From positions 28,706 to 92,705 of the forward strand of contig JAKPNH010000007.1 in assembly GCA_029548485.1 (NCBI GenBank): 64,000 nt of DNA, in the 5' to 3' direction. The first letter of the stretch is position 1. The number at the start of each line of letters is the position of its first letter. The DNA is from a bacterium (lineage in GTDB: Bacteria > Patescibacteriota > Minisyncoccia > UBA6257 > Colwellbacteraceae). This document shows, one piece after another, positions 11,481 through 49,358 of this stretch. The position numbers were made by a program, and so were the translations under genes. The notes beneath the pieces were generated by a model. It ran no database searches. It had not been told where the DNA came from and was given only the letters and a program-made list of their open reading frames with translations.

Positions 11481-11840
11481 TTAACGCCCCGTGATAAAGG
11501 CGGCGATAATAGAAGGTATTGACCTCGCCAAAACAGCCAAAGCGATACCGATAACGATATTCATGGCTCTTGGAGATAATTCTTTTATTTTATTGGTGTC
11601 TCCTCCGGATTTCACAAAATCAAACGCCGTCCGCAATATCATCCAGACCGTAAAAATAGTGATGATCCAGAAAAACCAGTTAAAAATAAGGGTGGGCCAT
11701 CCGTAAATATCGGTAAGGCTCCAGGTCCTCGTCGGGAGCGAAGGGATATCAGTAGGCGGAGGAATGGCTTGCGCCAAAACAACTCCCATATTTAGTGCGA
11801 CCACGGCCAATCCCGTTAACAAATAATTGATTTTTTTCAT
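11481..11840 (-). CDS. small two-TM secreted membrane protein, VirB2/TrbC-like pilin candidate (paralog 1 of 3)
   Basis: 119 aa. Signal peptide (MKKINYLLTGLAVVALNMGVVLAQA), two hydrophobic helices separated by a short polar loop (GGDTNKIKE), and a conserved C-terminal N-x-I-I-G...F-x-x-G tail shared with the next two ORFs. Confidence 0.4.
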   Translation of the reverse strand: MKKINYLLTGLAVVALNMGVVLAQAIPPPTDIPSLPTRTWSLTDIYGWPTLIFNWFFWIITIFTVWMILRTAFDFVKSGGDTNKIKELSPRAMNIVIGIALAVLARSIPSIIAAFITGR

Positions 11841-11909
11841 TTCTATTTCCTTTTATGACCTTTCTTGAATATTTATCTTATTATACAGAATAAAGCCGTT
11901 AAAACAAAA

Positions 11910-12260
11910 TCAGCCGGCAAAAAACTCCCTGACGATTCCCGGAATGCTTTGGGCGAACAGAATGACAACAAGACCGATGATCGCGTTCCACAATCTATTT
12001 TTGGCGTTTGCCTGGGCGGTAACAATGTTTTTATTAGTCATCAAGTCCCAAGCCGCTCTAAAAGCCTGGTAAATCATAATGGCCGAAGCGATCCACAAGA
12101 CCAGACTCCAAATCCTGGTGATTAAGGCTCCGATATCAGTCGGCAATCCGGTCGGCACAATTGCGTTTGGGTCGGGAACTGTTGCGTTTGGTTCCGAAGG
12201 GACGACGGCCTGCTGGGCCATCGCTTTTTTCACAAAAAATATTTTCAGTAAATCGAACAT
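11910..12260 (-). CDS. small two-TM membrane protein, VirB2/TrbC-like pilin candidate (paralog 2 of 3)
   Basis: 116 aa with the same architecture. C-terminus NAIIGLVVILFAQSIPGIVREFFAG. Confidence 0.4.
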   Translation of the reverse strand: MFDLLKIFFVKKAMAQQAVVPSEPNATVPDPNAIVPTGLPTDIGALITRIWSLVLWIASAIMIYQAFRAAWDLMTNKNIVTAQANAKNRLWNAIIGLVVILFAQSIPGIVREFFAG

Positions 12261-12261
12261 T

Positions 12262-12591
12262 TTATCCGCTAAACACGCCTTTTATCGTATTGTAGATCAA
12301 AACCGAACCGTAGACCAAAACCAAGCCGATAATGGCGTTTTGTATCTTTCCCTTGCCTTTGTCAAATTTTCCCTTATCTCCTCCGGCGGTCAGTATCTCG
12401 AATCCGCCGTAGACGATCCAGTAAAGGGCGACAAAAGGCACGATCTTGAAAATAAGATCGACGCCGTTCTTCAACAATTGAACGAATTGTTCCCAGCCGC
12501 AGCCGGTTTCAGGGTCGCAAGCCGGTATCAATCCCCTGGCGGCTTCGACCGCCTCTTCCGCGTCTTGGGCCAAAACCCGTGGAATCAGCAT
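12262..12591 (-). CDS. small two-TM membrane protein, VirB2/TrbC-like pilin candidate (paralog 3 of 3)
   Basis: 109 aa. C-terminus NAIIGLVLVYGSVLIYNTIKGVFSG. Tandem with the two paralogs above. Confidence 0.4.
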   Translation of the reverse strand: MLIPRVLAQDAEEAVEAARGLIPACDPETGCGWEQFVQLLKNGVDLIFKIVPFVALYWIVYGGFEILTAGGDKGKFDKGKGKIQNAIIGLVLVYGSVLIYNTIKGVFSG

Positions 12592-19677: not shown

Positions 19678-20673
19678 TCAAAAGGGTTGGCCCAGTTTTT
19701 CCAAGAGTTTGTAAGCGTCGGCGAATTTGGCGTAGCCGCGCCACGAGGCCCGGGAATTTTCCCAGGACTCTTCGGACAAAAGATCGTTTCTCACCATCGC
19801 CTCCAAACGGCGTTTCTTTTTCAGGAATCTTTTGACCGTGGATTTCCTCAAAAATCTTTTGTTTCCGCGAATGACGTAACCTAAGAAATCGACTCCTTTG
19901 TCCGTCGGAAAAACTTCGGCCTTTTTGGGGTGTAGCTCCAACCTCAGCCGGTCGCGCAGAAATTCTCGGATGAGCTCTTTGGACTCATGAAGACGGCCCT
20001 TGTCCAAGCCGAGAACGAGGAAATCGTCCATGTATCGGAGATAATATTTTTCCCGCAAGTTCCTTTTGACGAAATAATCGAGTTCGTTCAAATAGATGTT
20101 GGCGAAAATTTGACTGGTGAGATTGCCGATGGGAATGCCGGGCTTGTGGCTCTCGAGTATTTCGCCGAGGAGCCAGAGAACGTCTTCGTCCGGGATTTTC
20201 CGGCGGAAAATTTCCGCGATCAATTCGTGATCGACGTTGTCGAAATATTTGGAAACGTCGCATTTCAGGCAATAGACGCGCCGGCCTCGGGCTTTGGTCT
20301 TCAAGCTTCGCAAGAAACTCTCCAACCTTCTCACGGCCGCGTGGGTTCCTTTTCCTCTGCGGCAAGCGTAGGAATCATAAACAAAACCTTTGTCGAAAAT
20401 CGGCTCGATAATACCGCAAACCGCGTGGTGGACCACGCGGTCTCGGAAGGGCGCCGCCCGAATGGTGCGTTTTTTGGAGTCGCTCACGATGAATTCGCGA
20501 TAGCTTCCGTGCCGATAAGTCTTACTTTCCAATTCTCTTTGGAGCGCGAGGAGGTTTTCCTCCAGACGATGGCCGAATTTCAAAATGGAAAAACGATAGC
20601 GTTTGCAATGGCGGGCGTTAAGATAAGCGCGATGGAGGTTTCGGAAATCGGTGATTCGTTCAAAAAGAGTCAT
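19678..20673 (-). CDS. DGR reverse transcriptase
   Basis: 331 aa. RT motifs include RTIRAAPFRDRVVHHAV and YLRYMDDFLVL (YxDD). Motif 4 reads IPIGNLTSQIF, the DGR-specific [I/V]GxxxSQ form in place of the QGxxxSP of group II intron and retron RTs. Confidence 0.85.
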   Translation of the reverse strand: MTLFERITDFRNLHRAYLNARHCKRYRFSILKFGHRLEENLLALQRELESKTYRHGSYREFIVSDSKKRTIRAAPFRDRVVHHAVCGIIEPIFDKGFVYDSYACRRGKGTHAAVRRLESFLRSLKTKARGRRVYCLKCDVSKYFDNVDHELIAEIFRRKIPDEDVLWLLGEILESHKPGIPIGNLTSQIFANIYLNELDYFVKRNLREKYYLRYMDDFLVLGLDKGRLHESKELIREFLRDRLRLELHPKKAEVFPTDKGVDFLGYVIRGNKRFLRKSTVKRFLKKKRRLEAMVRNDLLSEESWENSRASWRGYAKFADAYKLLEKLGQPF

Positions 20674-20866
20674 GACCGTCGAGAACCCTTGACCCCGCGC
20701 CAGTATATCCGAAAGGCAATGGCGCGGGGAAACAGGTCGTATTTTCCCCTTCGGACACTAAGCCCTAACGAAGAAGGAATAAAAGCAGTAGCCATCTTGG
20801 CGCAGTCCCGGAATCTTTTGATTCCGAGCTCGGGCCAAGGATCGTCAAACGATCCTTATCGATGAG

Positions 20867-37963: not shown

Positions 37964-38113
37964 ATATATAACTTGTTGTAGTTATTGTTGTGGATTGGTG
38001 GATAAATTGTTTTCGACGCTTTTTTAAACGATTTTTTTAACAATTCAATTTGTGGATAAGAATTTATTATTTGAAATACTTTGTTTTTATCCATTGCTTA
38101 TACCCAAAGTAAT
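37964..38113. promoter_or_regulatory. oriC-associated DnaA-box cluster (dnaN-dnaA intergenic region)
   Basis: A perfect TGTGGATAA lies at 38051-38059. Near-consensus boxes TGTGGATTG lie at 37989-37997 and GGTGGATAA at 37997-38005. The AT-rich context is typical of a DNA-unwinding element. Confidence 0.7.
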
Positions 38114-39472
38114 TCACAGGTTTTGCGGTTTATTGATCAAATCCTTGATCAGGGAAATTTTCTGGTTTAATCCCTGGTCTTTGGAAAGGGAAAGGTTGAT
38201 TTTCTCGTAGGCATAGATGGCGGTCGTGTGGTCGCGCTTGCCCATTTTCTCGGCGATGTAGGGATAAGACATGTTTAGGATCTCCCGCAGCAGATAAATG
38301 GCCACCTGCCTCGGCTCAACGATCTCTTTTTTGCGGCCCCGGCCGATCAGATCGTTCGGAGAGATCTCGTAAAAAGTGGAAACGGCCTTGATCACCTGGG
38401 TCGGGCTCACGTTGACCGCCGACTGGGTCAAAATGTCGTTGACGATACTTTCTACCTGTTCGGCGGAAAACCCGTCCTGGTGCTGATTTCTGTAGAAAAT
38501 AAGCTTATTCAGGATGCCTTCGAGCTCCCGGATGTTCCTTTGTATTTTCTTGGCGACGATGCTCACGATCGGGTCGTCGAAAATCTCGTTCCTTTCCTGG
38601 AGCTTTACCTTGATGATGGCCATCCGGGTTTCGTAGTCCGGGAAGCTGATGTCGGCGATCATTCCGCCTTCGAACCTCGAGCGGAGCCTTTCCTCGAGTA
38701 TGGGAATGGCGCGCGGAGGCCTGTCGGAAGAGATGATGATCTGCTTGTTCGCCTCGTAAAGGGCGTTGAAGGTGTGAAAGAATTCTTCTTCGGTTTTTTC
38801 CTTGCCGCCGATGAATTGGATATCGTCGATGATCAGAACGTCGACGTTCCGGTAAGCTTCTTTGACGTCTTCGATCCTTTTATTCCTGATGGCCCAGATG
38901 ACGTCGTTCGTGAATTTTTCCGAGGAAACGTACTTGACGTTGATATTCTTGTAATTGTTCTTGATTTCGTTGCCGATCGCCTGGATCAAATGGGTTTTGC
39001 CGAGCCCGGTGCCGCCGTAAATGAACAGAGGATTGTATTTTTTGCCGATTTCCTCGATAACGGCCAGGCTCGCCGCGTAAGCCAATTCGTTCGAAGAGCC
39101 GACGACGAAGGATTTCAGATTGTATTTGGGATTCAAGCCGGTTTCCGGATCGATTTTAAGCTCGGAAAAAACAAGCTGTTTGGTTTGGGGAGCGGCCTGA
39201 ACCGGTTCCGCCGGTCTCTTGAAAGAAACGCTGTCGACGCTGTAGGTGATGTTCTTGATCGATCCGTCCTTGCTTCGCAGCACTCCCAGGATCAGCTTGT
39301 GGTATTTTGTCTCCACCCATTCTTTAGCGAAATGATTCGGAAGAACGACGGTCGCCTTGCCGTTCTCGTATTCGTTCATGCGGCTGTTCTTCAGCCACGT
39401 AAGGAAGTTAGGCTTTGAAATTTGTATTTCCAATTCTGATAGAACGTTTTTCCAAAGCTCTTCCTTGTTCAT
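38114..39472 (-). CDS. dnaA: chromosomal replication initiator protein DnaA
   Basis: AAA+ Walker A GGTGLGKTHL, sensor motifs, and a C-terminal DnaA-box-binding HTH domain. Confidence 0.95.
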   Translation of the reverse strand: MNKEELWKNVLSELEIQISKPNFLTWLKNSRMNEYENGKATVVLPNHFAKEWVETKYHKLILGVLRSKDGSIKNITYSVDSVSFKRPAEPVQAAPQTKQLVFSELKIDPETGLNPKYNLKSFVVGSSNELAYAASLAVIEEIGKKYNPLFIYGGTGLGKTHLIQAIGNEIKNNYKNINVKYVSSEKFTNDVIWAIRNKRIEDVKEAYRNVDVLIIDDIQFIGGKEKTEEEFFHTFNALYEANKQIIISSDRPPRAIPILEERLRSRFEGGMIADISFPDYETRMAIIKVKLQERNEIFDDPIVSIVAKKIQRNIRELEGILNKLIFYRNQHQDGFSAEQVESIVNDILTQSAVNVSPTQVIKAVSTFYEISPNDLIGRGRKKEIVEPRQVAIYLLREILNMSYPYIAEKMGKRDHTTAIYAYEKINLSLSKDQGLNQKISLIKDLINKPQNL

Positions 39473-39566
39473 GGCTTAATTTTAGGGAAGGAGGGCTTGA
39501 TAGTCAAAACAAAGGAAAAAACATAAGCTGTTGACTACCTGTGGATAATTCGATTATTTTTAATAT
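39473..39566. promoter_or_regulatory. dnaA-rpmH intergenic region with a DnaA box and a putative rpmH promoter
   Basis: A perfect TGTGGATAA lies at 39540-39548. TTGACT at 39531-39536 with a 17-nt spacer to an A/T-rich -10 region. Confidence 0.55.
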
Positions 39567-39701
39567 ATGTCCGTAACTTATCAGCCGAAGAAAAAGAAAA
39601 GAAGCCGCACGCACGGCTTTCTCAAACGTCAGAGCACTCCGGGCGGCAGGCGAACGATCTCGAGGCGCCGCGCCAAAGGACGGAAAAAACTGACGGTCTG
39701 A
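39567..39701 (+). CDS. rpmH: 50S ribosomal protein L34
   Basis: 44 aa. [44 protein letters not shown]. Absent from the ORF track because it is shorter than 60 aa. Canonical rpmH-rnpA linkage. Confidence 0.85.
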
Positions 39702-41202: not shown

Positions 41203-41994
41203 TTAATTGGAGTCTCCGCTCGATCCTCCGAAAGAAGGGGCGCCGGCAAGAGGATTGATCGGGTTGTTGTTCAACCTGATCTCGAAATGGAGATGGGGGC
41301 CAGATGAACGGCCGGTGCTTCCGGACAAGGCGATTTGCTGGCCTCTCGCGACTTCTTCGCCGACGTCGACGGCGCTTCCGAGACTTAATAAATGGCCGTA
41401 GAGCGTGGTGTAACCCGAAGAGTGTTCGAGGATAATATAATTGCCGTATCCGTCGGAATCATATCCGGCATAGCTCACGACGCCGTCGGCCGCGGCGTAA
41501 ACCGGAGTGCCGGAATTGACGCCGATGTCGATGCCGTTATGCATCCGCCCGTCTCTCATGCCGAAAGGCGAGGTGATCTGTCTTCCTTGGGTCGGCCAAG
41601 CAAGCTGGCCGATCGGCAGTTGAATCAAATCGCCGCTGCCAACCGAGCCCTCGGACAGCTTCGGGATGGAAGGCAGATCGATTTTGAACTGCAAAAGATC
41701 GGGATTGATGGTGCTGATGATGATGTAGCTCGTGGCGAGTATTCCCAACCCCCAGGCGGCTTCGATGATCATGTTTCGAGAACGAAGCCTCGCGGCCGGG
41801 TTGTTGGCGCGCAGGGTGTATTGGAACCCGGCCCAGACAATGATCAAAAAGGCGATAAATCCGCCGAGTTCCCAGGCAAAAACAAAAAGATTGCTGAGTC
41901 CCCCGGGAATGAGGCTGTCTAAGGCTTGCAGGATGCCGGAAGACGAGGTCATTCCGTTCGCGGCTTCGGCGATTCCGATGAAAAAATTGGCCAT
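41203..41994 (-). CDS. membrane-anchored M23 family metallopeptidase (LytM domain), T4SS-associated cell-wall hydrolase candidate
   Basis: N-terminal TM helices. M23 motifs HNGIDIG and YTTLYGHL (HxxxD ... HxH). It is the last gene of the VirB4-containing minus-strand cluster. Confidence 0.8.
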   Translation of the reverse strand: MANFFIGIAEAANGMTSSSGILQALDSLIPGGLSNLFVFAWELGGFIAFLIIVWAGFQYTLRANNPAARLRSRNMIIEAAWGLGILATSYIIISTINPDLLQFKIDLPSIPKLSEGSVGSGDLIQLPIGQLAWPTQGRQITSPFGMRDGRMHNGIDIGVNSGTPVYAAADGVVSYAGYDSDGYGNYIILEHSSGYTTLYGHLLSLGSAVDVGEEVARGQQIALSGSTGRSSGPHLHFEIRLNNNPINPLAGAPSFGGSSGDSN

Positions 41995-42035
41995 TGTTTA
42001 AATTATAACCGAAATAAAAGAAATAGGGATAATCG

Positions 42036-42422
42036 TCAGGAAGAAGTTTTGTCGGCGCTTTTCACGGACGGCCGGGTTTTTTTGGCCTTTTGGACCGCTC
42101 CCAAAACGGCTTCGGTTTCCGGGTGGCTCAAAAGATAAAAAGTGACGATCAGAGTGATGGTTTTGATCGGCAGTAAATTAACAACCGGCAAAAGCTCGAA
42201 AATGCTCCCGGCGAGCGACCAGGTGGCCTTGACGCCTTTCAGCCAAAGATAGCCGTTGATGATGATCCCGGCGAAAAAAGCGACCACGGAGTTCAAGAGC
42301 AAGAATATCGTTCCGACCACCGGCACCAATCCGAAAAGGCCGTTCAAAAGCTCGAAAAGATCGGCTCCGATGGCCACCAGAAAAAGGATTATGCTTTCGG
42401 GTAGAGAGATTTTTTGGGACAT
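42036..42422 (-). CDS. small polytopic membrane protein (3-4 TM), T4SS-associated
   Basis: 128 aa, highly hydrophobic. Lies between the VirB4-like ATPase and the M23 peptidase. Confidence 0.4.
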   Translation of the reverse strand: MSQKISLPESIILFLVAIGADLFELLNGLFGLVPVVGTIFLLLNSVVAFFAGIIINGYLWLKGVKATWSLAGSIFELLPVVNLLPIKTITLIVTFYLLSHPETEAVLGAVQKAKKTRPSVKSADKTSS

Positions 42423-44738
42423 CTAGGCGTTCGCCGGTTCTTCTCCGGCCAAGAGGATTTCTTCCGGATTGGTGGTGATGATCTGGTGCTCGAAAGGAGA
42501 GGCGACGACTTCGATGGCGGCGTGGGTCATGCCGGCGAGGAACAAGCCTTGGCCGATATCCACTTCGAGAAGGTAATTCTTTTCGGCTTCGGAAAGGCCG
42601 AAGGCCTTGGCCGTCGGCTCGATCGACGAGGGCGATTGTTTCAAGAGAAGCTGGAGCGAGGAATTGGTGATGATCGGCCGTCCGAAAGGCGAACTCAAAA
42701 AATCTTCGACGTCCTGGGTGATGGTGGTGATGCCGAGATAATATTTCCTCGCTCTTTTCACCAGCCCGAAAAGGAAAGAAGCCGAATCCGGATACCGCAT
42801 CAACCACCAGGCCTCGTCGATGATCATCAGCCTCTTTCTGAAATCGGCCCGCACCAGGTTCCAGACGAAATTCAAAATGATGAACATAGCGATCGGCCGG
42901 AGTTCGTCTTCGAGGTCGCGGATGGAAAAAACGACCAAGCGGTTAGCGGTGTCGATATTCGAAGGCTTGTTCAAAAATCCGGCGTAGCTCCCTTTAGTGA
43001 AGCGGTAGAGCCGGTCGGCCATGGTCCGGCCGCCTTCGATGTTCCTAAATATCTCTTCCAGGTCTTCGAGAAGGGGCGGAACGCTTCCCGAGAAATCTTT
43101 GTTCGGGGTGATGTCTTTCGAGGCGTAGGCTTCGGTGATGGCCTGGTCGATGACCGCTTCTTCTTCCGGCTTGATCTCCCCGAACATGAGCTTCATCAGG
43201 CTCGTCAGGTTGACGATGTGCGATTTCAGGATCTCGCTCGGACTTTCGTCTTCCGGAATCGGCGGAACGTCGAAGGGATTGATGTGGTTCAAGGAATCGA
43301 GCGAGATCTTGATGAACGATCCGCCGACCGATTCGGCCAGGCTTTGATATTCATTCTCGGGATCGATGATGATCACCTCGTCGCCGACCATGAGGGATCT
43401 CAAGACCTCGAGCTTGGTAGCGTATGATTTTCCCGAACCGGCCTTGGCGAAGACGACGGTGTTGGCGTTTTCCAAGGAAAACCGGTCGAAAATGATCGGC
43501 GTGTTATTGTGGCGGTTGATGCCGTAGAGCACACCTTCGTCCGAAGACAGGGTGGCGGAGACGAACGGGAAAAACGAGGAAAGGGTGTTGGTGTTGAAGG
43601 GATTCGCGATCTCCAGGCGGTCTTCGGCTATGGGCAGGGTGGAGTAGAATCCCTGAAGGTTCTCGAAAAGCAATGGCTTGGCGTAGACGAGCTTGGCCTC
43701 GAGCCCGCTCGAGATGCGATCGAAAATGCGGTTCAAATCCGAAACGTCTCTCCCGAAAACGGTCATGTAGACGCCGACGGAAAAAAGCTTTTCCTGGGCT
43801 TGTTGGAGGTTGTCGCGCAGAGCTTCGATGTCATAGAGGGCGGTTTCGAGCATCGGATCCCGGACCAGGCCTTTTTCCTCGAGCTCCATTATCTGCACCT
43901 GGACTTGGGCCGAGCGGTTGCGGAGCTGCCGCAGGACGTCTCGGGTCTCGGTCGGAGAAATATGGATGGAGATGTCGGCCAATTCGGCGAGGTTGATGAT
44001 GTCCGACATCCAGCCGCTCGCGAGATAGCGCGGATAACCGGAGATGAAGAGGGTCTTCGCCACAAGATTGTTCACTTTGAGCGAACTCGGGGAGATCTCA
44101 AATCTCCGGGGGCCGATGAATTTCTGGGCTTCGGCCGGATTCAATTTTTCTCCCGGATTGAAAGCGCCGTAAAAGAGCTCTTGGAGTTCGGCTTCTTCGA
44201 GGACAATGCCCCGGAGCCCGATACGATGGAGCCCCCTGATGATCTGTTCGACTTTGAGATTCAATTTTTCTTCAGCTTCGCGGACGGCCTTTGGTTCGGT
44301 CTGGCTCCCGGGCTCTTGTCTTTTTCCTATTTCCGGCAGGCTGATGATTTCGTGGGGGATGGTGATGAAGAATCCTTTTTTCATGACGGCGTTTTCGGAA
44401 ACGAAAGCCTCGATGAATTCCCGGTAGATGGCGATCTGGTTCCGCATCATCTCGTTTTTCTCCTGGTCTTCTCTTTCTTTCAAGCGGTTAAGGTAGTCGT
44501 CGATGAAAAACTTTCTCGAGGAAACGCTGATCTCGATCGGATAATCGAGCGAATTAAGCATATCGGCGAAAGCGGCGAGGATCATCTGCTGCTCCTCGCT
44601 CGATTTCAAATCGAAATTGACTCCGTTCACCATGATGACCTTGCGGAGTCCGCCGTCTTTAAGGAAAACCGAATTGCCTTCGATCTTTTTGACCGGCAAA
44701 ACGCTTTCCGAAGAGATGTTTCTGGTTTCCCTGGCCAT
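42423..44738 (-). CDS. VirB4/TrbE/CagE-like type IV secretion ATPase
   Basis: 771 aa. C-terminal P-loop NTPase with Walker A (AKAGSGKSYATK) and Walker B (RLMIIDEAWWL) in the arrangement typical of VirB4/TraC (DUF87-type) ATPases. Confidence 0.75.
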   Translation of the reverse strand: MARETRNISSESVLPVKKIEGNSVFLKDGGLRKVIMVNGVNFDLKSSEEQQMILAAFADMLNSLDYPIEISVSSRKFFIDDYLNRLKEREDQEKNEMMRNQIAIYREFIEAFVSENAVMKKGFFITIPHEIISLPEIGKRQEPGSQTEPKAVREAEEKLNLKVEQIIRGLHRIGLRGIVLEEAELQELFYGAFNPGEKLNPAEAQKFIGPRRFEISPSSLKVNNLVAKTLFISGYPRYLASGWMSDIINLAELADISIHISPTETRDVLRQLRNRSAQVQVQIMELEEKGLVRDPMLETALYDIEALRDNLQQAQEKLFSVGVYMTVFGRDVSDLNRIFDRISSGLEAKLVYAKPLLFENLQGFYSTLPIAEDRLEIANPFNTNTLSSFFPFVSATLSSDEGVLYGINRHNNTPIIFDRFSLENANTVVFAKAGSGKSYATKLEVLRSLMVGDEVIIIDPENEYQSLAESVGGSFIKISLDSLNHINPFDVPPIPEDESPSEILKSHIVNLTSLMKLMFGEIKPEEEAVIDQAITEAYASKDITPNKDFSGSVPPLLEDLEEIFRNIEGGRTMADRLYRFTKGSYAGFLNKPSNIDTANRLVVFSIRDLEDELRPIAMFIILNFVWNLVRADFRKRLMIIDEAWWLMRYPDSASFLFGLVKRARKYYLGITTITQDVEDFLSSPFGRPIITNSSLQLLLKQSPSSIEPTAKAFGLSEAEKNYLLEVDIGQGLFLAGMTHAAIEVVASPFEHQIITTNPEEILLAGEEPANA

Positions 44739-44741
44739 GGA

Positions 44742-45242
44742 TTATCTGTAATCGATCCGGCGGACTGATTCTTTTTCGCCGGTTATTTTTTGGATGATGG
44801 CGTATCTTTGCCGCCATTCGTTTTGGTTCCTGATGAAGTCCGCTTCAAAAGACATTTCCCGCTTGGGCACCGGAGAAATGCTCGTCGTGATGCGTTCGAA
44901 AAGCGTGGTCAAAGACGGTCTGGCCGGAGCTCTGATAGTGGTGACGGCGACGAGTTTTTCTTCGGAATAGGCCGGCCAGACGTAGGCCTTTGGTCGGATA
45001 AGGTAATAGGCGGCGGCCTTGATCACCGCGGGAAGCGGCCGGGTGTTGATTTTGGCAAAAGCGAGAGCGCTGCCGATTCCCATCAAGATTCCGGCGATGA
45101 CTATCCAAAGCCAGTTGGCGAGCGGGAAATACAAGAAATAGGAAATGGCCGCCGGAATAGCCAGATATATAAACTGGTTCAAGGTCAGGGGACCGATGAT
45201 GCGGTTCTCGATGGAAACAAATTGCGGAACTAAAAATTGCAT
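44742..45242 (-). CDS. two-TM membrane protein, VirB3/PrgI-like candidate
   Basis: 166 aa with two adjacent hydrophobic helices (FIYLAIPAAISYFLYF, WLWIVIAGILMGIGSALAF). Lies immediately upstream of the VirB4-like gene (4-nt gap). Confidence 0.4.
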   Translation of the reverse strand: MQFLVPQFVSIENRIIGPLTLNQFIYLAIPAAISYFLYFPLANWLWIVIAGILMGIGSALAFAKINTRPLPAVIKAAAYYLIRPKAYVWPAYSEEKLVAVTTIRAPARPSLTTLFERITTSISPVPKREMSFEADFIRNQNEWRQRYAIIQKITGEKESVRRIDYR

Positions 45243-45281
45243 CGTTAAAGCCTTTCTGATCGAAGAAGGACTTAGTTAATT

Positions 45282-46193
45282 CTACAAAGGAAGGTCTTTT
45301 AAGTCTATTTTTTTGTTTTCCGGAGAAGCCGCGGATTTGGCCACTTCTTCGATGATCTCGTCGTTGAATTTGGTTTGCGGGACCTTGGGTTCGGGTGTTG
45401 CCGCAGGCGGAGCGACCGGAGCCGGTGGTTCAGGTGCGATCGTCGGTTGCGGATTGATCGGTTCTCGGCTGTTTCCGAAAGGACTCAAGGGCGTCATGAG
45501 TGTCGAATAATGCACGATTTTCGGGACAAAAGCCTCGGTTCTGGCGGCTTCAGGTTTTTTCGGAGCAGCCGGGGTTTCCGGTTTTTGCCCGCTGAATTGG
45601 ATCTTGGCCGGACCGGTCGGCTCTTTGAAAGTCGGAGTCGAGGGCTGGCTCGAACTGAAAAAAGCCCGTTTGATCGGTTCGTAATTGATGTTGTGTTCTT
45701 CCGAAAGCGTCTTGAAAGCCGCTTCTTGGTGGAGAATATAAGGAGTCGAAGCCGGAGTTTGGGCTGCGGGTTCCGGAGCAGGGGGGATCGGAGCCGGCGG
45801 CGCGGCAACAGGCTGCGGAGTATCGGCGGCCGGAGGAATGTTTGCGGCCGCGGGAGTAGGGGGTGGTGTTTGCGTCTCCTGGACATCGGCGTTCGGGGCG
45901 GTTCCGGGAACTATGAAAGGAGCGATCGCGGAAAACACCTTGTCGTTCAATTGGGAAGCGATCTGGTTCAAGGCATTCTCGTTCAATTCGGGGAGTTTTT
46001 GTCTCAAAATATTCGGAAAATCGCTGCGGGAAACGTCTCCCCACAAAACATCGTCGCTCGTTTCTTCGACGACGTTCGCTTGGGCTTCGTTTAAATTGAA
46101 AGAAGCTTTTAGAGATTCGAGTAGGCCGGTATATTCATCGCTAAGCAGGACTTCTTTTATTTCGATAGGAAGATTCTCCCATGCTTTGGCCAT
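45282..46193 (-). CDS. hypothetical proline-rich protein (Pro/Ala/Thr low-complexity central region)
   Basis: 303 aa, with PxP-rich repeats (PPPTPAAANIPPAADTPQPVAAPPAPIPPAPEP). Located within the T4SS-like cluster. Confidence 0.4.
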   Translation of the reverse strand: MAKAWENLPIEIKEVLLSDEYTGLLESLKASFNLNEAQANVVEETSDDVLWGDVSRSDFPNILRQKLPELNENALNQIASQLNDKVFSAIAPFIVPGTAPNADVQETQTPPPTPAAANIPPAADTPQPVAAPPAPIPPAPEPAAQTPASTPYILHQEAAFKTLSEEHNINYEPIKRAFFSSSQPSTPTFKEPTGPAKIQFSGQKPETPAAPKKPEAARTEAFVPKIVHYSTLMTPLSPFGNSREPINPQPTIAPEPPAPVAPPAATPEPKVPQTKFNDEIIEEVAKSAASPENKKIDLKDLPL

Positions 46194-46195
46194 GA

Positions 46196-48574
46196 TTATT
46201 TCTTGTTTCCCTCTTCCGGCTTTTCCGATTTTTGTTCGGGTTCTTTTTTCTCCTCCTCTTTCGCGGCCGTCTCCGTTCCTTCCCGATAGAACTTTCTTTC
46301 GCTGCTTTCGGCGAAAGACCTAAGCCTGGCGGATAGCTGCAGATCTTGTGTCTCGAGAAGCGTTTCGGCCGCTCTCTTCGCCGCGCCGGTGATGCTCAAG
46401 AGATTGCTCGTGTTCACTCCTTCGGCTTTCATGAGTTCTTTCAAAAGATTGGGATTTTTCTTGTACATCTCCAAAACGAGATTTTCTTGAATGGCGCTTA
46501 AGGATTGCGGGTCGGGAATCACGGCTTTCCCGACCGCTTTTGGATCTTGGAGATCAACGAAAATGGAGCCGACGAGCATCTGCCTCGCGTCTTTGGGAGA
46601 GAGCTTGTCGACAAACTTGGATATATTCGTCCTGATCGTTTCGGGGTCGGCGGGAGAAGCCCTCAGAGCCTCGTAAATATCTACGTTCAACCCGAGCCGT
46701 TTGAAGAGATCGTCGTCTTTGAAACCCAGTCCTTTGTACGTCCTGATGAAGTCGGGATTCAACAGCTTGGCGGCCGGAGCTTGAACCTTGGAAAATTCTT
46801 TCTTGCCGACAATTCTGTTAACGGCGACGGCCAGCCGAGCTCCGCTCAGTCTCGGAATGAGGCTGGCGATATTCTCGTCGGACAGTCCTTGGAACTCCGC
46901 TTTATAAGCATCGATTGTCTGTTTGCCGACGGCTTCTTGCTGTTTCTTGACGCCTCCGGAGATTCTGGCGAGAGTGGTTCCTTTCAGGCGGTCAACGGGG
47001 CTCTCGCTCGACAAAAGTCTGGCAACGTTTTCTTTGCTGGTAGGCCCTTTAAGCCGTTCTTGCGCAACCTGGGTGGCCTCTCTTCTTACGGCGGCCAAAG
47101 GCTGTCTGTAGAGTCTTTCGGATAAAGTTTGGGTGGTCCACTTCTTGGCCGCGTTCAACGCTTTGTCCGCCCTTCCCAAGACAGCTTTTCCTCCGCCCAA
47201 GCTAAGGCTGTTAGCCCATTGCAATCCGATGATAAGCAGAATCAATTGAAGAACCAATCTGCCGACGGATAACCCGAGAGAGGCTCCAAAAACCGTACTG
47301 GCAGTGCCGTCGAGCCCGGCGGAGCTCAAACTTAGGATGATATAAATGAAAAACGTCATCACCGGCGCAAAAAGCAGCCAGCGGACGAACTGTTCGCTCC
47401 AATTCTTGAACGAACCGAGGTTCTTGAAGGTGACGACCGGAAAAACCTCCATGAAAATCACGAAAGGCGAAATAATGACGAGAAAAGTCAGGTATGCCCA
47501 ACGGATGAAAAACATGATGGCGATGGCCAGCATCGTGAGAATCATGCCGACGCCGACAAGAGCGGTCAAAAGCGGCACGAAGATCAATTGTAAAGCGCCT
47601 TCTATATTCCCCAATAAAAATCCTTTCATGGTGGGAATCGTCCCAAAATATCTCCAGGCGTTTGACGAAGAAACCATTTGGCTCAAAGACCTGGTGATGT
47701 CGTCGGAAATACTGATGAACATTCCGGCCAAAGCGAAAGCGAAGTTGACGAGGAAGAAAGCGAGAAGGAATTGAGGCAGCCTTTCCTTCCCGATTTTGTT
47801 CAGGAGGTTGAAGTTGGGGAAGACCGGTTTTAGCATGGTAGCGAAACCGATGATGAGTACTCCGAACACGAAAAATATATTGACGAATTGGAGTACGACG
47901 TCGAAACCCACTTTGGCCAGGCTAGCCGGTCCGTAAATGGTTTCGTTCAAGGCGATCGCTCCGGACATCAGTTGGACGGATAGTTGAACAAACACTTTCA
48001 CGATGCCGCCGACTATGCTGGTGAGAAAGCAGGCGATCGTGCCGAAGATATTGAGGCTTAGAAGCGGCAGCAAACAGCCCGATTCTTCCGTTGATTCACA
48101 AACGCCTTGGGTAGAATCGGGAAAGTAAGCGCAAGTCAGCGGACTTCGGCAAGATTGGAAATATGTCCGTTCGTTGCCCTCTTCGTCTGTTTCGCTTAAT
48201 CGGCCGCACGATTCTCCTTGTGCTGATCCGGCAAGACCCAATTCGGCTTGTTGCTGTTCGATATATCTTTCCGCTTCCTCGGCGATGTAGCATTGGCCGG
48301 AATCATAGCCGGCATAGGCGGCGACGCAAGCGTAGCCGGTAGGGCATTCTCTCGCCATGCCCACTTGGCAGCACTGGGGCTCTCCGATCGGACCGCTCGC
48401 CGAATAACAAGTGCCCGTTGTTGAAGAGGTAGGAGAGCAATAATTGCCGACAGAACAAGAGCTCGAATCTCGGGGATCGCAACTCTGCCCAGGAGGGAAA
48501 CAAGCCGCCTTTGCTTTTCCGGTAATGACCGCAACCGACAAAACAACCGCGATCAAGAGAAAATATTTGCGCAT
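46196..48574 (-). CDS. VirB6/TrbL-like polytopic membrane protein with an N-terminal Cys-rich secreted domain and a C-terminal hydrophilic tail
   Basis: Start taken at MRKYFLLIAVVLSVAVITG (signal peptide). The extracytoplasmic domain is Cys-rich (about 20 Cys), followed by at least 8 TM helices and a long charged C-terminus. This is the architecture of VirB6/TrbL family proteins. Confidence 0.5.
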   Translation of the reverse strand: MRKYFLLIAVVLSVAVITGKAKAACFPPGQSCDPRDSSSCSVGNYCSPTSSTTGTCYSASGPIGEPQCCQVGMARECPTGYACVAAYAGYDSGQCYIAEEAERYIEQQQAELGLAGSAQGESCGRLSETDEEGNERTYFQSCRSPLTCAYFPDSTQGVCESTEESGCLLPLLSLNIFGTIACFLTSIVGGIVKVFVQLSVQLMSGAIALNETIYGPASLAKVGFDVVLQFVNIFFVFGVLIIGFATMLKPVFPNFNLLNKIGKERLPQFLLAFFLVNFAFALAGMFISISDDITRSLSQMVSSSNAWRYFGTIPTMKGFLLGNIEGALQLIFVPLLTALVGVGMILTMLAIAIMFFIRWAYLTFLVIISPFVIFMEVFPVVTFKNLGSFKNWSEQFVRWLLFAPVMTFFIYIILSLSSAGLDGTASTVFGASLGLSVGRLVLQLILLIIGLQWANSLSLGGGKAVLGRADKALNAAKKWTTQTLSERLYRQPLAAVRREATQVAQERLKGPTSKENVARLLSSESPVDRLKGTTLARISGGVKKQQEAVGKQTIDAYKAEFQGLSDENIASLIPRLSGARLAVAVNRIVGKKEFSKVQAPAAKLLNPDFIRTYKGLGFKDDDLFKRLGLNVDIYEALRASPADPETIRTNISKFVDKLSPKDARQMLVGSIFVDLQDPKAVGKAVIPDPQSLSAIQENLVLEMYKKNPNLLKELMKAEGVNTSNLLSITGAAKRAAETLLETQDLQLSARLRSFAESSERKFYREGTETAAKEEEKKEPEQKSEKPEEGNKK

Positions 48575-48593
48575 TATTGAAATAATACCATTT

Positions 48594-49358
48594 TTACTCC
48601 GCGAAAACACGGCTAAGCTCGAGAATCTGGCTAAAAGAAAGGTCCTGGCCCCGCAAAGAAGGATCGATTCCTTGTTTTTCCAGTTTTTCCTTGAGTTTTT
48701 CTTTGTCGGTTTCAAGAGAAGAAAGGTTGTTCAAAACGGTTTTTCTCGGTTGCTTGAAAAGCGCCTTTACGAACGGATAATAGTTTTCCCGATCGGCCGG
48801 CGATCCGGCCGGACGGGTTTTCAGGAGAATGACCGCTGAATCCACTTTCGGCGACGGAGAAAAATCCTTTTTGGAGACGAAAGAGACGATTTTCGGCTCG
48901 GCCCAGAAGCGGACGCTCGCCGCGAGCAAATTCATTTTCGGAGGCTCGGCCGCGATTCTTTCGGCCACTTCTTTTTGGACGGTAAAGACCGAAAGCGTCG
49001 GTTTTTTCGGAAGGTTTTCGATTGTCCGGAAAAGATAGCCGCTGATGTAATAAGGAATGTTGCCGCAGAGCTTGTAGTCGCCTTCCAAATCATTAGCGAT
49101 CGAAGGTAGTTCTTCCAAGGCATCGCCGAGAACCACTTCCAGGTTCGGAAAAGAGTGCGCCAATTTAATCGCCAAACCCTTGTCTTTTTCGATCGCGATC
49201 AACCTTTGCGGCTTTCGGTCCAGAATATGCCTGGTCAGTTCTCCGTGGCCCGGACCGATTTCGATAACCGTGTCGGCTTCGGAGATTTCCAAAGCCGAGG
49301 CGATCTTCCGGAGAACCTCCTGGTTTTTCAAGAAATGCTGGCCGAGGCGCCTCATCAA
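48594..49358 (-). CDS. rsmA: 16S rRNA (adenine1518-N6/adenine1519-N6)-dimethyltransferase
   Basis: KsgA N-terminus LGQHFL, SAM-binding motif IEIGPGHGELT. Confidence 0.9.
   Translation of the reverse strand: MMRRLGQHFLKNQEVLRKIASALEISEADTVIEIGPGHGELTRHILDRKPQRLIAIEKDKGLAIKLAHSFPNLEVVLGDALEELPSIANDLEGDYKLCGNIPYYISGYLFRTIENLPKKPTLSVFTVQKEVAERIAAEPPKMNLLAASVRFWAEPKIVSFVSKKDFSPSPKVDSAVILLKTRPAGSPADRENYYPFVKALFKQPRKTVLNNLSSLETDKEKLKEKLEKQGIDPSLRGQDLSFSQILELSRVFAE

What the first reader, a model, noticed from the sequence alone, without database searches (positions are those of the whole stretch)
41203..48574. Type IV secretion-like gene cluster (VirB4, VirB6-like, VirB3-like, M23 hydrolase) on the minus strand
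Six co-directional, tightly spaced genes. A Cys-rich polytopic VirB6/TrbL-like protein (839-aa ORF, likely 792 aa) is followed by a Pro-rich protein, a two-TM VirB3-like protein and a VirB4/TrbE-like ATPase with Walker A and B motifs. These are followed by a small membrane protein and a membrane-anchored M23 peptidase that could act as the peptidoglycan-remodelling component. No relaxase, coupling protein (VirD4) or VirB11 is seen in the window. This points to a minimal T4SS-like apparatus of the kind associated with DNA uptake, release or contact-dependent transfer in reduced-genome bacteria, rather than a classical conjugative plasmid module.
Basis: partly seen in the sequence, partly recalled or inferred. 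Interest (0 to 1): 0.55.

Follow-up and report, generated by a model that had tools for sequence, protein, structure and literature searches.

The report
Patescibacterial type IV secretion gene cluster

Summary
The six co-directional minus-strand genes at 41203-48574 are real. They form a type IV secretion (T4SS) core:
- a VirB6/TrbL-like polytopic protein
- a conserved Pro-rich protein of unknown function
- a PrgI (VirB3-type) protein
- a full-length VirB4 ATPase of the monoderm CD1110 type
- a small membrane protein
- an M23 peptidase whose N-terminus is a VirB2-like T4SS-pilin domain

The window comes from a Candidatus Colwellbacteria (Patescibacteria/CPR) genome. The cluster lies about 1.6 kb from the dnaA-rpmH origin region, between jag-yidC-rnpA and ksgA. 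That gene order is conserved in dozens of related genomes. The window holds no relaxase, VirD4 or VirB11. Three tandem VirB2-like pilin genes lie about 30 kb away.

All of this matches the Patescibacteria T4SS described by Quinonero-Coronel et al. 2025 and shown to be essential in a Saccharibacterium by Wang et al. 2023. The finding is therefore correct but already known.

This lineage has four local peculiarities:
- VirB4 is unsplit, whereas most relatives carry separate TrsD-like and VirB4 genes.
- The M23 domain is fused to the pilin-like anchor.
- An Ig-repeat protein present in most relatives is missing.
- The terminal domains of the VirB6-like protein are hypervariable.

The function is inferred, not shown. 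It is most likely a translocon that works on contact with a host cell, not a conjugation machine.

The parts
46196..48574 (-). VirB6/TrbL-like polytopic membrane protein (792 aa). It has a signal peptide, a Cys-rich exported N-domain (16 Cys in residues 25-182), a TM core of about 7 helices (174-451) and a hydrophilic helical C-domain of about 340 aa (an 'extended VirB6').
   Evidence: Searches give the anatomy. PF19590 TrbL_3 is on record for this exact protein, although my own Pfam scan found nothing. 8 of 35 orthologues hit PF04610 TrbL, best 6.7e-10. The chain window -> L040 (1.3e-13) -> TrbL (29 bits, cutoff 25.9) links it to the family. A profile against PDB hits TrwI (R388 VirB6) only at E=0.23. 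Only the TM core is conserved, even against the closest relative L004.
45282..46193 (-). Conserved Pro-rich protein (303 aa, 49 Pro, no TM segment, no signal peptide). It has a helical N-domain of about 95 aa, a Pro-rich linker and short conserved motifs (PYILH, KIVHYSTLMTPLSPF, C-terminal IDLKDLPL). Function unknown.
   Evidence: It occupies the same slot between the VirB6-like gene and PrgI in 56 of 83 related loci. It has no Pfam or NCBIfam hit, either itself or among 38 orthologues. A single-sequence AF2 model of residues 1-105 gives a 5-helix bundle with pLDDT 76.8 and no significant PDB fold match, best E 0.6. An exhaustive phmmer search finds about 50 clusters of proteins of roughly 170-440 aa, often with two copies of the domain, and a Pfam scan of five of them named nothing.
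44742..45242 (-). PrgI-family protein (the VirB3 equivalent of monoderm T4SS), 166 aa, with hydrophobic segments at 24-63.
   Evidence: Pfam PrgI E=5.4e-5, 24.1 bits against a cutoff of 27. 46 of 47 orthologues hit PrgI, best 9.5e-16. It lies immediately upstream of VirB4 in 74 of 83 loci.
42423..44738 (-). VirB4 ATPase, 771 aa and full length. The TrsD-like N-terminal domain and the P-loop ATPase are in a single ORF. Walker A is AKAGSGKS and Walker B is LMIIDE (637).
   Evidence: NF045971 conju_CD1110 scores 379 bits (cutoff 325). Mbov_0397 VirB4_plasma scores 324 bits, TraC-F 182 and VirB4_CagE 138. TrsD matches residues 21-131. PDB 4AG5 2e-45 and TrwK 6e-7. pCF10 PrgJ 5e-38. The protein is 100% identical to a Candidatus Colwellbacteria MAG protein. 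It is split into about 215 aa plus about 600 aa in 71 of 76 relatives. The 5 unsplit copies form one nested clade.
42036..42422 (-). Small polytopic membrane protein (128 aa) with conserved KGV...E.lP..n.LP..T motifs. It is an uncharacterised T4SS-linked component.
   Evidence: It has no family hit, either itself or among 26 orthologues. It lies directly after VirB4 in at least 27 of 83 loci. Hydrophobic segments are listed.
41203..41994 (-). Fusion of a VirB2-like T4SS-pilin domain (two TM helices, about 33-103) with a C-terminal M23 metallopeptidase (150-248) whose HNGID and HLH motifs are intact. It is the likely peptidoglycan-remodelling component, held at the machine by the pilin-like anchor.
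   Evidence: Peptidase_M23 8.5e-36. T4SS_pilin 1.3e-5, 25.6 bits against a cutoff of 26.6. A weak Mbov_0395 pilin-like hit. The pilin-like domain marks the gene downstream of VirB4 in about 55 loci, with C-terminal extensions that bring the proteins to 99-1679 aa. Of 51 such proteins, 38 hit T4SS_pilin, 5 hit TrbC/VirB2, only 2 carry M23 (window and L004) and 1 carries NlpC/P60. The top PDB hits of the family profile are A. tumefaciens VirB2, E 0.19-0.39.
11481..12591 (-). Array of three tandem VirB2-like pilin genes (12262-12591, 109 aa; 11910-12260, 116 aa; 11481-11840, 119 aa), directly downstream of gyrA. These are the probable pilus subunits of the same system, encoded about 30 kb away.
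   Evidence: PF18895 T4SS_pilin scores 36 bits (cutoff 26.6), 25.2 bits and 19.9 bits. The same domain is on record in public annotation of the contig. The 116-aa protein weakly hits the Mbov_0395 pilin-like family. Their link to the cluster is inferred from the literature on pilin arrays; it is not shown here.
37997..39701 (.). Context, not a component: the origin region. It comprises dnaA (38114-39472, -), rpmH (39567-39701, +), perfect DnaA boxes at 38051 and 39540, and a one-mismatch box at 37997. The T4SS cluster begins about 1.6 kb away, after rnpA-yidC-jag.
   Evidence: The same T4SS placement next to dnaA is seen in all 40 related loci that reach dnaA, and it is described in PMC12102498.

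Best explanation
The region is the core gene cluster of the Patescibacteria-type type IV secretion system. This is a chromosomal, vertically inherited derivative of the monoderm (MPF-FATA) conjugation machinery, found here in a Candidatus Colwellbacteria genome next to the replication origin.

Inferred working model:
- The VirB6/TrbL-like polytopic protein and the PrgI (VirB3-type) protein form the membrane translocon.
- The hexameric VirB4 ATPase docks on the translocon and powers assembly and transport.
- The pilin-anchored M23 endopeptidase opens the peptidoglycan locally.
- The VirB2-like pilins (the N-domain of the M23 protein and the three-gene array at 11.5-12.6 kb) build a short pilus or conduit.
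- The Pro-rich cytoplasmic protein and the 128-aa membrane protein are conserved accessory parts of unknown role.

The window holds no relaxase or coupling protein, and the cluster has a fixed housekeeping location. I therefore think the machine does not conjugate DNA. I think it moves macromolecules between the epibiont and its host cell on contact.

What is shown here: gene identities, synteny, conservation and the absence of conjugation genes from the window. What is inferred: assembly, the pilus and the substrate.

My split on substrate direction is export of proteins or effectors about 0.4, import of host material (nucleic acids or other) about 0.25, and other or unknown about 0.35.
For: - **Identity of the parts.** VirB4 scores above the curated cutoff of the CD1110 family, and the next best models are the Mycoplasma ICE VirB4, then TraC-F, then VirB4/CagE. 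It also matches solved VirB4 structures and pCF10 PrgJ. For PrgI. For VirB6/TrbL, calibrated against PrgH. For the pilin domain and M23. For the pilin array.
- **Gene order.** VirB6-VirB3-VirB4-hydrolase is colinear with pCF10 prgH-I-J-K.
- **Organism.** The closest homologues are all Colwellbacteria, Parcubacteria or Patescibacteria MAG proteins.
- **Vertical chromosomal inheritance.** The order ksgA > VirB6-like > Pro-rich > PrgI > VirB4 > ... < jag < yidC < rnpA, dnaA > dnaN recurs across relatives whose VirB4 identity falls as low as about 45%. GC content is the same as in the flanks.
- **No conjugation genes in the window.** No relaxase, T4CP or VirB11.
- **Literature.** The same system, context and lack of relaxase are described for about 2,400 Patescibacteria genomes (PMC12102498). 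T4SS genes, including the pilins, are essential for epibiotic growth of S. epibionticum, where comEC is dispensable (PMC10633639; PMC12857230). Tubular structures at a parasite-host interface have been suggested to be T4SS pili (bioRxiv 10.64898/2026.06.21.733656).
Against: - No function has been shown for any Patescibacteria T4SS. The essentiality data come from Saccharimonadia, not from Paceibacteria or Colwellbacteria.
- Only 64 kb of the genome was available, so a VirD4-like T4CP or a relaxase may be encoded elsewhere. The paper reports T4CP homologues in most genomes, far from virB4.
- No VirB8-like component was recognised.
- The VirB6 assignment for the window protein is transitive. My direct Pfam scan was negative, and the profile against PDB hit TrwI only at E=0.23.
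- The AF2 model of the VirB6-like protein was unusable, pLDDT 45.5.
- The pilin domain of the M23 protein falls 1 bit under the Pfam cutoff.
- The link between the distant pilin array and this cluster is an inference.
Confidence: 0.85

Rival explanations
1. The cluster is the mating-pair-formation module of an integrated conjugative element or decayed plasmid. It would be a mobile element or its remnant that transfers or once transferred DNA, and not a housekeeping system.
For: The VirB4 is closest to conjugative ATPase families of Firmicutes and Mycoplasma ICEs. The gene order is colinear with pCF10. A tyrosine recombinase gene lies at 9653-10540, next to the pilin array.
Against: There is no relaxase, T4CP or element-type integrase adjacent to the cluster. 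The same position between ksgA and jag-yidC-rnpA-dnaA is kept across dozens of genomes whose VirB4 identity falls to about 45%. GC content equals that of the flanks. Published phylogeny shows class-specific vertical inheritance with rare exchange.
Confidence: 0.03
2. The machine is an uptake device. It would import host DNA, RNA or nucleotides into the auxotrophic epibiont, in the way the H. pylori ComB T4SS or the archaeal Ced system imports DNA, and would not export anything.
For: Patescibacteria lack nucleotide synthesis. Competence (comEC) is dispensable while the T4SS is essential in S. epibionticum, and import has been proposed (PMC11665869; PMC12857230). A cultivated relative feeds on host RNA and shows tubular structures at the interface. 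Weak NCBIfam similarity to the CedB and CedD import ATPases appears in the P-loop region only, E 1.9e-6 and 2.5e-3.
Against: No experiment shows import through any Patescibacteria T4SS. The Ced similarity is generic P-loop similarity, far below the cutoffs (27 bits against 700). Nothing in this window, such as an adjacent nuclease or nucleic-acid-binding protein, points to nucleic acid handling by the cluster.
Confidence: 0.25
3. The ATPase is not a T4SS motor. It would be a HerA/FtsK-like DNA pump or another P-loop protein that merely happens to lie among unrelated membrane proteins.
For: Pfam DUF87 (HerA central domain) and AAA_10 hit the P-loop region at 9e-8 and 1.5e-10.
Against: The full-length match (residues 32-738) to the VirB4 CD1110 equivalog is above its curated cutoff. 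Solved VirB4 structures match. The neighbours are PrgI, TrbL/VirB6-like and T4SS pilin-like proteins in conserved order.
Confidence: 0.01

Closest known systems
Patescibacteria (CPR) T4SS clade: Quinonero-Coronel et al. 2025 (PMC12102498); S. epibionticum SEML1_0006-0019 in Wang et al. 2023 (PMC10633639)
   Same: It shares a monoderm-type VirB4, PrgI/VirB3, a VirB6-like protein, VirB2-like pilins including a tandem array, and a cell-wall hydrolase next to virB4. No relaxase or T4CP lies nearby. The location is chromosomal, beside dnaA, dnaN, rnpA, rpmH and ksgA, as reported for Paceibacteria (here).
   Different: - VirB4 is one 771-aa ORF here, whereas most relatives carry a TrsD-like gene plus a shorter virB4.
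- The hydrolase is an M23 domain fused to the pilin-like anchor, seen in only 2 of the 51 downstream pilin-like proteins compared.
- The signal-peptide Ig-repeat protein found in 42 relatives is absent.
- The pilin array is 30 kb away, not inside the cluster as in S. epibionticum.
MPF-FATA conjugative T4SS of Gram-positive bacteria (pCF10 PrgH-PrgI-PrgJ-PrgK; CD1110-family VirB4 of clostridial conjugative transposons)
   Same: VirB4 meets the CD1110 equivalog cutoff and matches PrgJ at 5e-38. PrgI and TrbL-type proteins score against Pfam at the same level as the pCF10 prototypes. The order VirB6-VirB3-VirB4-hydrolase is colinear.
   Different: - No T4CP (PcfC), relaxase (PcfG), VirB8-like PrgL/PrgD or adhesin PrgB was found.
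- VirB2-like pilins are present, which Gram-positive systems generally lack.
- The hydrolase is M23, not lysozyme plus CHAP.
- The VirB6-like protein is about three times longer, with extra N- and C-terminal domains.
- The cluster is not on a mobile element.
Mycoplasma ICE T4SS (Mbov_0397 VirB4, Mbov_0395 pilin-like protein)
   Same: It is the second-best VirB4 model, 324 bits. The pilin-like proteins weakly hit the Mbov_0395 pilin-like family, 3e-4 and 0.012. This suggests the pilin-like component is shared with wall-less monoderm ICEs.
   Different: Scores are well under the equivalog cutoffs (590 and 40). The Mycoplasma systems are mobile and conjugative.
pGO1/pSK41 TrsD + TrsE (split VirB4)
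   Same: Most relatives of this locus have the same split: an N-terminal-domain protein of about 215 aa followed by an ATPase of about 600 aa. The window protein's residues 21-131 match TrsD.
   Different: In the window the two parts are one polypeptide. This is most simply a secondary fusion, because the 5 unsplit proteins form one clade nested among 71 split ones. That tree is neighbour-joining with no support values.
H. pylori ComB and archaeal Ced DNA-import systems (functional analogy only)
   Same: These are T4SS-derived machines that work without a relaxase. They have been cited as precedent for an uptake role in Patescibacteria.
   Different: There is no specific sequence affinity. CedB and CedD hits are far under their cutoffs. 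ComB is a diderm VirB2-10-type system. Direction of transport is untested here.

Membership tests
Type IV secretion system (VirB4-based), monoderm MPF-FATA / Patescibacteria clade | A VirB4-family ATPase, the only universal T4SS signature | tested here: met
   NF045971 scores 379 bits against a cutoff of 325 over residues 32-738. PDB 4AG5 2e-45 and TrwK 6e-7. Walker A and B are intact.
Type IV secretion system (VirB4-based), monoderm MPF-FATA / Patescibacteria clade | VirB4 groups with monoderm (FATA) and Patescibacteria VirB4 rather than with diderm classes | tested here: inconclusive
   The ranking of curated models is CD1110 (379) > Mycoplasma ICE (324) > TraC-F (182) > VirB4/CagE (138) > Bacteroidetes TraG (63). 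All close homologues are Patescibacteria. No tree with reference MPF classes was built. The published tree places such proteins in a Patescibacteria clade inside MPF-FATA.
Type IV secretion system (VirB4-based), monoderm MPF-FATA / Patescibacteria clade | A VirB3-type (PrgI) small membrane protein next to VirB4 | tested here: met
   The window protein scores 24.1 bits (E 5.4e-5), under the cutoff of 27. 46 of 47 orthologues hit PrgI, best 9.5e-16. The pCF10 PrgI prototype itself scores 32.6 bits.
Type IV secretion system (VirB4-based), monoderm MPF-FATA / Patescibacteria clade | A VirB6/TrbL-type polytopic channel protein | tested here: met
   The link is transitive: window-L040 at 1.3e-13, then L040-TrbL at 29 bits against a cutoff of 25.9. 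8 of 35 orthologues hit TrbL. PF19590 is on record for the exact protein. The prototype PrgH scores 29.2 bits. Caveats: the direct scan of the window protein was negative, TrwI matched only at E 0.23, and AF2 failed.
Type IV secretion system (VirB4-based), monoderm MPF-FATA / Patescibacteria clade | VirB2-like pilins, the distinguishing feature of the Patescibacteria systems among monoderm T4SS | tested here: met
   PF18895 scores 36 bits against a cutoff of 26.6 for 12262-12591. Two further tandem genes and the N-domain of the M23 protein score 19.9-25.6 bits. 38 of 51 downstream-of-VirB4 proteins in relatives hit PF18895 and 5 hit TrbC/VirB2.
Type IV secretion system (VirB4-based), monoderm MPF-FATA / Patescibacteria clade | A cell-wall hydrolase associated with the cluster (VirB1 role) | tested here: met
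   The Peptidase_M23 domain scores 8.5e-36 and its catalytic motifs are intact. It is an analogue of VirB1, not a homologue. Enzymatic activity was not tested.
Type IV secretion system (VirB4-based), monoderm MPF-FATA / Patescibacteria clade | A VirB8-like (NTF2-fold) bitopic component | tested here: not met
   None of the six proteins hits a VirB8-type family, and pCF10 PrgL and PrgD find no homologue in the window. The literature reports VirB8 as rarely detectable in Patescibacteria. Because of this, its absence here does not exclude membership of the Patescibacteria clade.
Type IV secretion system (VirB4-based), monoderm MPF-FATA / Patescibacteria clade | Chromosomal, origin-proximal location with conserved housekeeping neighbours (Paceibacteria pattern) | tested here: met
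   rpmH and the DnaA boxes at 38051 and 39540. The same neighbours are seen in all 40 loci that reach dnaA. This matches PMC12102498.
Conjugative element (ICE or plasmid transfer module) | A relaxase (MOB) and oriT | tested here: not met
   No relaxase family appears in the Pfam annotation of window genes. The pCF10 relaxase and MobC have no hit in the window or in 83 loci. The rest of the genome cannot be tested with these tools.
Conjugative element (ICE or plasmid transfer module) | A VirD4-type coupling protein | tested here: not met
   PcfC has no hit. No T4SS-DNA_transf, TraG-D_C or TrwB family appears among window genes. The rest of the genome was not available.
Conjugative element (ICE or plasmid transfer module) | Mobility: variable genomic location and foreign composition | tested here: not met
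   The location is fixed across relatives. GC is 0.50-0.54, the same as the flanks.
ComB/Ced-type DNA import systems | Specific homology to import ATPases or channel proteins, and demonstrated uptake | tested here: not met
   CedB scores 26.8 bits against a cutoff of 700, and CedD 16.5 against 600. Uptake itself cannot be tested with these tools.

The most novel reading that the evidence does not exclude
In this Colwellbacteria lineage the T4SS has been remodelled into a host-breaching feeding conduit. The M23 endopeptidase, displayed on a VirB2-like pilin scaffold, would cut the host's peptidoglycan and not the cell's own. The fast-diverging Cys-rich ectodomain of the VirB6-like protein would set host specificity. 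The conserved Pro-rich cytoplasmic protein would be a new adaptor that feeds or receives substrates at the VirB4 motor. My evidence does not exclude any of this. The M23 fusion is lineage-specific. The VirB6 terminal domains are unalignable between genomes whose VirB4 is 94% identical. The Pro-rich family is conserved and unannotated.
Probability: 0.12. Interest if true: 0.65.

Novelty: already known. Interest (0 to 1): 0.3.

Why it matters
Patescibacteria make up a large share of bacterial diversity and live on other cells. Their T4SS is the only one known to be essential for its owner's growth, and its substrate is unknown. This locus adds no new kind of system. It is a clean Paceibacteria-type example that could serve comparative work in four ways:
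- It shows which parts are invariant: PrgI, VirB4, the TM core of the VirB6-like protein and the pilin-like domain.
- It shows which parts are swapped or lost between close relatives: the VirB6 end domains, the cargo fused to the pilin anchor and the Ig-repeat protein.
- It shows that the split VirB4 can be re-fused.
- It flags two conserved, unannotated components, the Pro-rich protein and the 128-aa membrane protein, as candidates for structural and genetic study.

Tried and rejected
1. **AF2 of the 792-aa VirB6-like protein.** The model had mean pLDDT 45.5 and pTM 0.25, so it was unusable and I ran no fold search on it.
2. **Word-indexed homologue searches for the VirB6-like protein.** They returned only 5 hits with the single sequence and 7 with the profile, because the family evolves fast and low-complexity words dominate the candidate list.
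3. **Profile of the VirB6-like family against PDB.** TrwI matched at E 0.23 only. The top hits were coiled-coil noise from the C-domain.
4. **My family HMMs against the pCF10 Prg/Pcf proteins.** Only VirB4-PrgJ was significant. PrgH, PrgI, PrgF, PrgL and the others were not, so HMM-to-sequence search is too insensitive at this distance.
5. **Pro-rich protein.** It has no Pfam, NCBIfam or PDB sequence hit. A Foldseek search of the N-domain model against PDB gave nothing below E 0.6. The afdb50 library was unavailable. The giant multi-repeat hits in the exhaustive search (P0129, P0130, P0139) are Ig-like repeat proteins and probably spurious.
6. **128-aa protein.** No family hit, either itself or among 26 orthologues.
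7. **Promoter and terminator scan of the cluster.** Counts were at the level of shuffled sequence, so it was uninformative.
8. **T2SSE ATPase at 31682-33007 as a possible VirB11.** Rejected: it is GspE/PilB-type.
9. **PrgF as the Gram-positive counterpart of the pilin-like proteins.** pCF10 PrgF does not hit T4SS_pilin.
10. **HerA/FtsK reading of the ATPase.** Rejected.

Full report
**1. The observation**

| Coordinates | Length |
|---|---|
| 46196-48715 | 839-aa ORF |
| 45282-46193 | 303 aa |
| 44742-45242 | 166 aa |
| 42423-44738 | 771 aa |
| 42036-42422 | 128 aa |
| 41203-41994 | 263 aa |

- The gaps between the genes are 2, 39, 3, 0 and 41 nt.
- The 792-aa start at 48574 is the plausible one for the first gene. 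It leaves 19 nt after the ksgA stop, while the 839-aa start would overlap ksgA by 122 nt. Public gene callers also use the 792-aa start.
- The 792-aa protein has a signal-peptide-like start and 16 Cys confined to residues 25-182. It then has about seven hydrophobic helices at 174-451 and a hydrophilic helical tail of about 340 aa.
- The 303-aa protein has 49 Pro and no hydrophobic segment.
- The ATPase carries Walker A (AKAGSGKS) and Walker B (LMIIDE).
- The M23 protein keeps the HNGID and HLH motifs.

**2. What the proteins are**

*VirB4.* The 771-aa protein meets the curated cutoff of NCBIfam 'VirB4-like conjugal transfer ATPase, CD1110 family' (379 bits against 325, residues 32-738).
- The next best models are the Mycoplasma ICE VirB4 (324), TraC-F (182) and VirB4/CagE (138). 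Residues 21-131 also match TrsD.
- It matches the solved VirB4 C-domain 4AG5 at 2e-45 and R388 TrwK at 6e-7, and pCF10 PrgJ at 5e-38.
- HerA/DUF87 similarity is confined to the P-loop.

*PrgI.* The 166-aa protein hits Pfam PrgI just under the cutoff (24.1 bits against 27). However, 46 of 47 orthologues hit PrgI, best 9.5e-16. The pCF10 prototype itself scores only 32.6 bits.

*VirB6/TrbL-like protein.* The 792-aa protein gave no hit in my own Pfam scans, although PF19590 TrbL_3 is on record for the identical public protein. The link I could reproduce is transitive:
- The window protein matches the orthologue in L040 at 1.3e-13 over the TM core.
- That orthologue hits Pfam TrbL/VirB6 at 29 bits, above the cutoff of 25.9. 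This equals the 29.2 bits of the prototype PrgH.
- 8 of 35 orthologues hit TrbL.
- A family profile reaches R388 TrwI only at E 0.23.

*M23 protein.* The 263-aa protein is an M23 peptidase (8.5e-36). Its N-terminal two-helix segment is a T4SS_pilin (VirB2-like) domain (25.6 bits against a cutoff of 26.6).

*The two unknowns.* The 303-aa and 128-aa proteins have no family assignment.

**3. Organism and context**

The VirB4 is 100% identical to a Candidatus Colwellbacteria MAG protein, and every close homologue is from Patescibacteria/Parcubacteria.

The cluster lies between ksgA-uvrD on one side and jag-yidC-rnpA-rpmH | dnaA-dnaN on the other. Perfect DnaA boxes sit at 38051 and 39540. The cluster therefore starts about 1.6 kb from the origin region. 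Its GC content is the same as that of the flanks.

**4. Related loci**

I fetched 80 loci from species-representative genomes using a VirB4 profile. I called ORFs in them and searched with the window proteins by iterated phmmer/hmmsearch.
- PrgI precedes VirB4 in 74 of 83 loci.
- The Pro-rich protein is found in 56 loci, the VirB6-like protein in 53 and the 128-aa protein in 27.
- All 40 loci that reach dnaA show yidC, usually with rnpA and jag, then dnaA and dnaN on the same side as in the window.
- These counts are lower bounds, because many contigs are short.

This conserved housekeeping position, kept down to about 45% VirB4 identity, argues for vertical chromosomal inheritance and against an ICE remnant.

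**5. Other T4SS parts in the window**

Public annotation of overlapping contigs gave Pfam families for nearly all window genes.
- Directly downstream of gyrA lie three tandem VirB2-like pilin genes (12262-12591, 11910-12260, 11481-11840). I confirmed them at 36, 25.2 and 19.9 bits against PF18895.
- There is no relaxase, VirD4-type coupling protein or VirB8-like protein in the window. pCF10 PcfC, PcfG, PrgL and PrgD find nothing in the window.
- The lone T2SSE ATPase (31682-33007) is GspE/PilB-type, not VirB11.

**6. Lineage-specific features**

a. *Unsplit VirB4.* In 71 of 76 relatives with complete sequence, VirB4 is two genes. They are a TrsD-like N-domain protein of about 215 aa and an ATPase of about 600 aa, in varying frames and with varying spacers. 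The split is therefore real and not a recoding artefact. The window, L004, L005, L006 and L026 have one ORF. In a neighbour-joining tree these five form a single clade nested among split forms, which suggests a secondary fusion. The tree has no support values.

b. *M23 fused to the pilin-like anchor.* The gene downstream of VirB4 carries the pilin-like domain in about 55 loci, and these proteins range from 99 to 1679 aa because their C-terminal extensions differ. Of 51 such proteins, 38 hit T4SS_pilin, 5 hit TrbC/VirB2, only 2 carry M23 (window and L004) and 1 carries NlpC/P60. The top PDB hits of the family profile are A. tumefaciens VirB2, though weak (E 0.19-0.39).

c. *Missing Ig-repeat protein.* 42 relatives have a signal-peptide, Ig-like-repeat protein of about 230-330 aa between the small membrane protein and the pilin-like gene. 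The window has no homologue.

d. *Hypervariable VirB6 ends.* Against L004, whose VirB4 is 94% identical, the TM core (180-479) aligns at high identity. The Cys-rich N-domain does not align at all, and the C-domain is barely recognisable.

**7. The Pro-rich protein**

Its orthologues share three features:
- an N-terminal domain of about 95 aa;
- a Pro-rich linker of variable length;
- short motifs (PFILH, RVVHYSExRTPL, and a C-terminal GNxVDLK or DPYRE).

A single-sequence AF2 model of residues 1-105 is a five-helix bundle (pLDDT 76.8, pTM 0.64) with no significant PDB neighbour.

An exhaustive phmmer search of 1.84 billion representatives finds 55 hits. Most are proteins of roughly 170-440 aa, often with two copies of the domain. 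A Pfam scan of five of them named no family. A few giant Ig-repeat proteins among the hits are probably spurious.

It is a conserved, unannotated, probably cytoplasmic companion of this T4SS. Its role is unknown.

**8. Comparison with what is known**

Quinonero-Coronel et al. 2025 (PMC12102498) surveyed 3,035 Patescibacteria genomes.
- They found VirB4 in 2,417 genomes, forming a Patescibacteria clade nested in MPF-FATA.
- Associated components were TrsD, PrgI/VirB3, VirB6, VirB2-like pilins (including arrays) and hydrolases, some with Peptidase_M23.
- They found almost no relaxases, and T4CP genes far from virB4.
- In Paceibacteria and Microgenomatia the cluster lies next to dnaA, dnaN, rnpA, ksgA and rpmH.

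Wang et al. 2023 (PMC10633639) showed by Tn-seq that the T4SS cluster and its pilins are essential for epibiotic growth of S. epibionticum. They noted the lack of coupling and relaxase proteins.

Reviews state that the role is unknown and speculate on effector delivery or uptake through a pilus conduit. A 2026 preprint reports tubular structures at a parasite-host interface, possibly T4SS pili, in an RNA-feeding relative.

The window locus matches this description point by point. It is also colinear with pCF10 prgH-prgI-prgJ-prgK.

**9. Mechanism**

*Shown here:* component identities, order, conservation, origin-proximal position and the absence of conjugation genes from 64 kb.

*Inferred from knowledge of T4SS architecture:*
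- The VirB6-like protein and PrgI form the membrane channel on which hexameric VirB4 docks.
- VirB2 topology puts the C-terminus outside the membrane, so the M23 domain would sit in the wall and cut peptidoglycan cross-links for assembly.
- The pilins form a short pilus.

*Inferred from the literature:* the system serves the host-dependent lifestyle rather than conjugation. The direction and substrate of transport remain open.

**10. Verdict**

The system is an ordinary member of a published class, so I rate the novelty as 'already known'.

Interest is modest (0.3). It comes only from the open question of function and from the local variants: the re-fused VirB4, the pilin-anchored M23, the variable VirB6 ends and the two unannotated conserved partners.

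Noticed in passing
window 19678-22953 (-): A complete diversity-generating retroelement. It comprises a reverse transcriptase (19678-20673), a template repeat (20867-20983), bAvd (21059-21400) and a 494-aa target protein (21469-22953). The target has a prepilin N-methylation signal and an FGE-sulfatase/C-type-lectin domain, with the variable repeat (21470-21586) at its 3' end. The two repeats are 82% identical, and nearly all mismatches fall at adenines of the template.
   Followed up: partly
window 24461-25780 (+): A second prepilin-type protein (439 aa) carrying a fibrinogen-like GGGWT domain. It may be a pilus-displayed adhesin.
   Followed up: no
window 11481-12591 (-): Three tandem, mutually divergent VirB2-like T4SS pilin genes lie immediately after gyrA, 30 kb from the VirB4 cluster. 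A XerC/D-like tyrosine recombinase gene lies nearby at 9653-10540.
   Followed up: partly
window 42423-44738 versus loci L007-L083: VirB4 is split into a TrsD-like ORF of about 215 aa and an ATPase ORF of about 600 aa in 71 of 76 relatives. It is one ORF in the window and four related genomes, which cluster together in a neighbour-joining tree. The likely explanation is a secondary gene fusion.
   Followed up: yes
loci L007-L082, between VirB4 and the pilin-like gene; absent from the window: 42 relatives encode a protein of about 230-330 aa with a signal peptide and Ig-like repeats in the cluster. The window lineage lacks it, and three close relatives (L005, L006, L026) also lack the 128-aa membrane protein. 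This looks like a streamlined cluster.
   Followed up: partly
window 46196-48574 versus L004:6284-8581: Between genomes whose VirB4 is 94% identical, the TM core of the VirB6-like protein is highly conserved. The Cys-rich exported N-domain is unalignable and the C-domain is almost so. This points to domain replacement or very fast divergence of the non-membrane parts.
   Followed up: partly
window 31682-33007 (-): A GspE/PilB-type type IV pilus assembly ATPase (441 aa) stands alone between yebC-ruvC and ruvB, with no adjacent pilC or pilM genes.
   Followed up: no
window 37997-39701: The origin region: rpmH (44 aa) at 39567-39701, and perfect DnaA boxes at 38051 (dnaA-dnaN spacer) and 39540 (dnaA-rpmH spacer). 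The T4SS genes lie on the minus strand to the right of this region. If replication starts here, they would be transcribed head-on to it.
   Followed up: partly
window 46196-48574: The records disagree. The public collection lists PF19590 (TrbL_3) for this exact protein, but hmmscan against the session's Pfam copy returned no family at E <= 0.1 for either the 839-aa or the 792-aa form.
   Followed up: no
window 45282-46193 and proteins P0131-P0182: The helical N-domain of the Pro-rich protein occurs twice in tandem in many of its distant homologues (matched stretches at about 13-100 and 127-215). This suggests a duplicable module.
   Followed up: no
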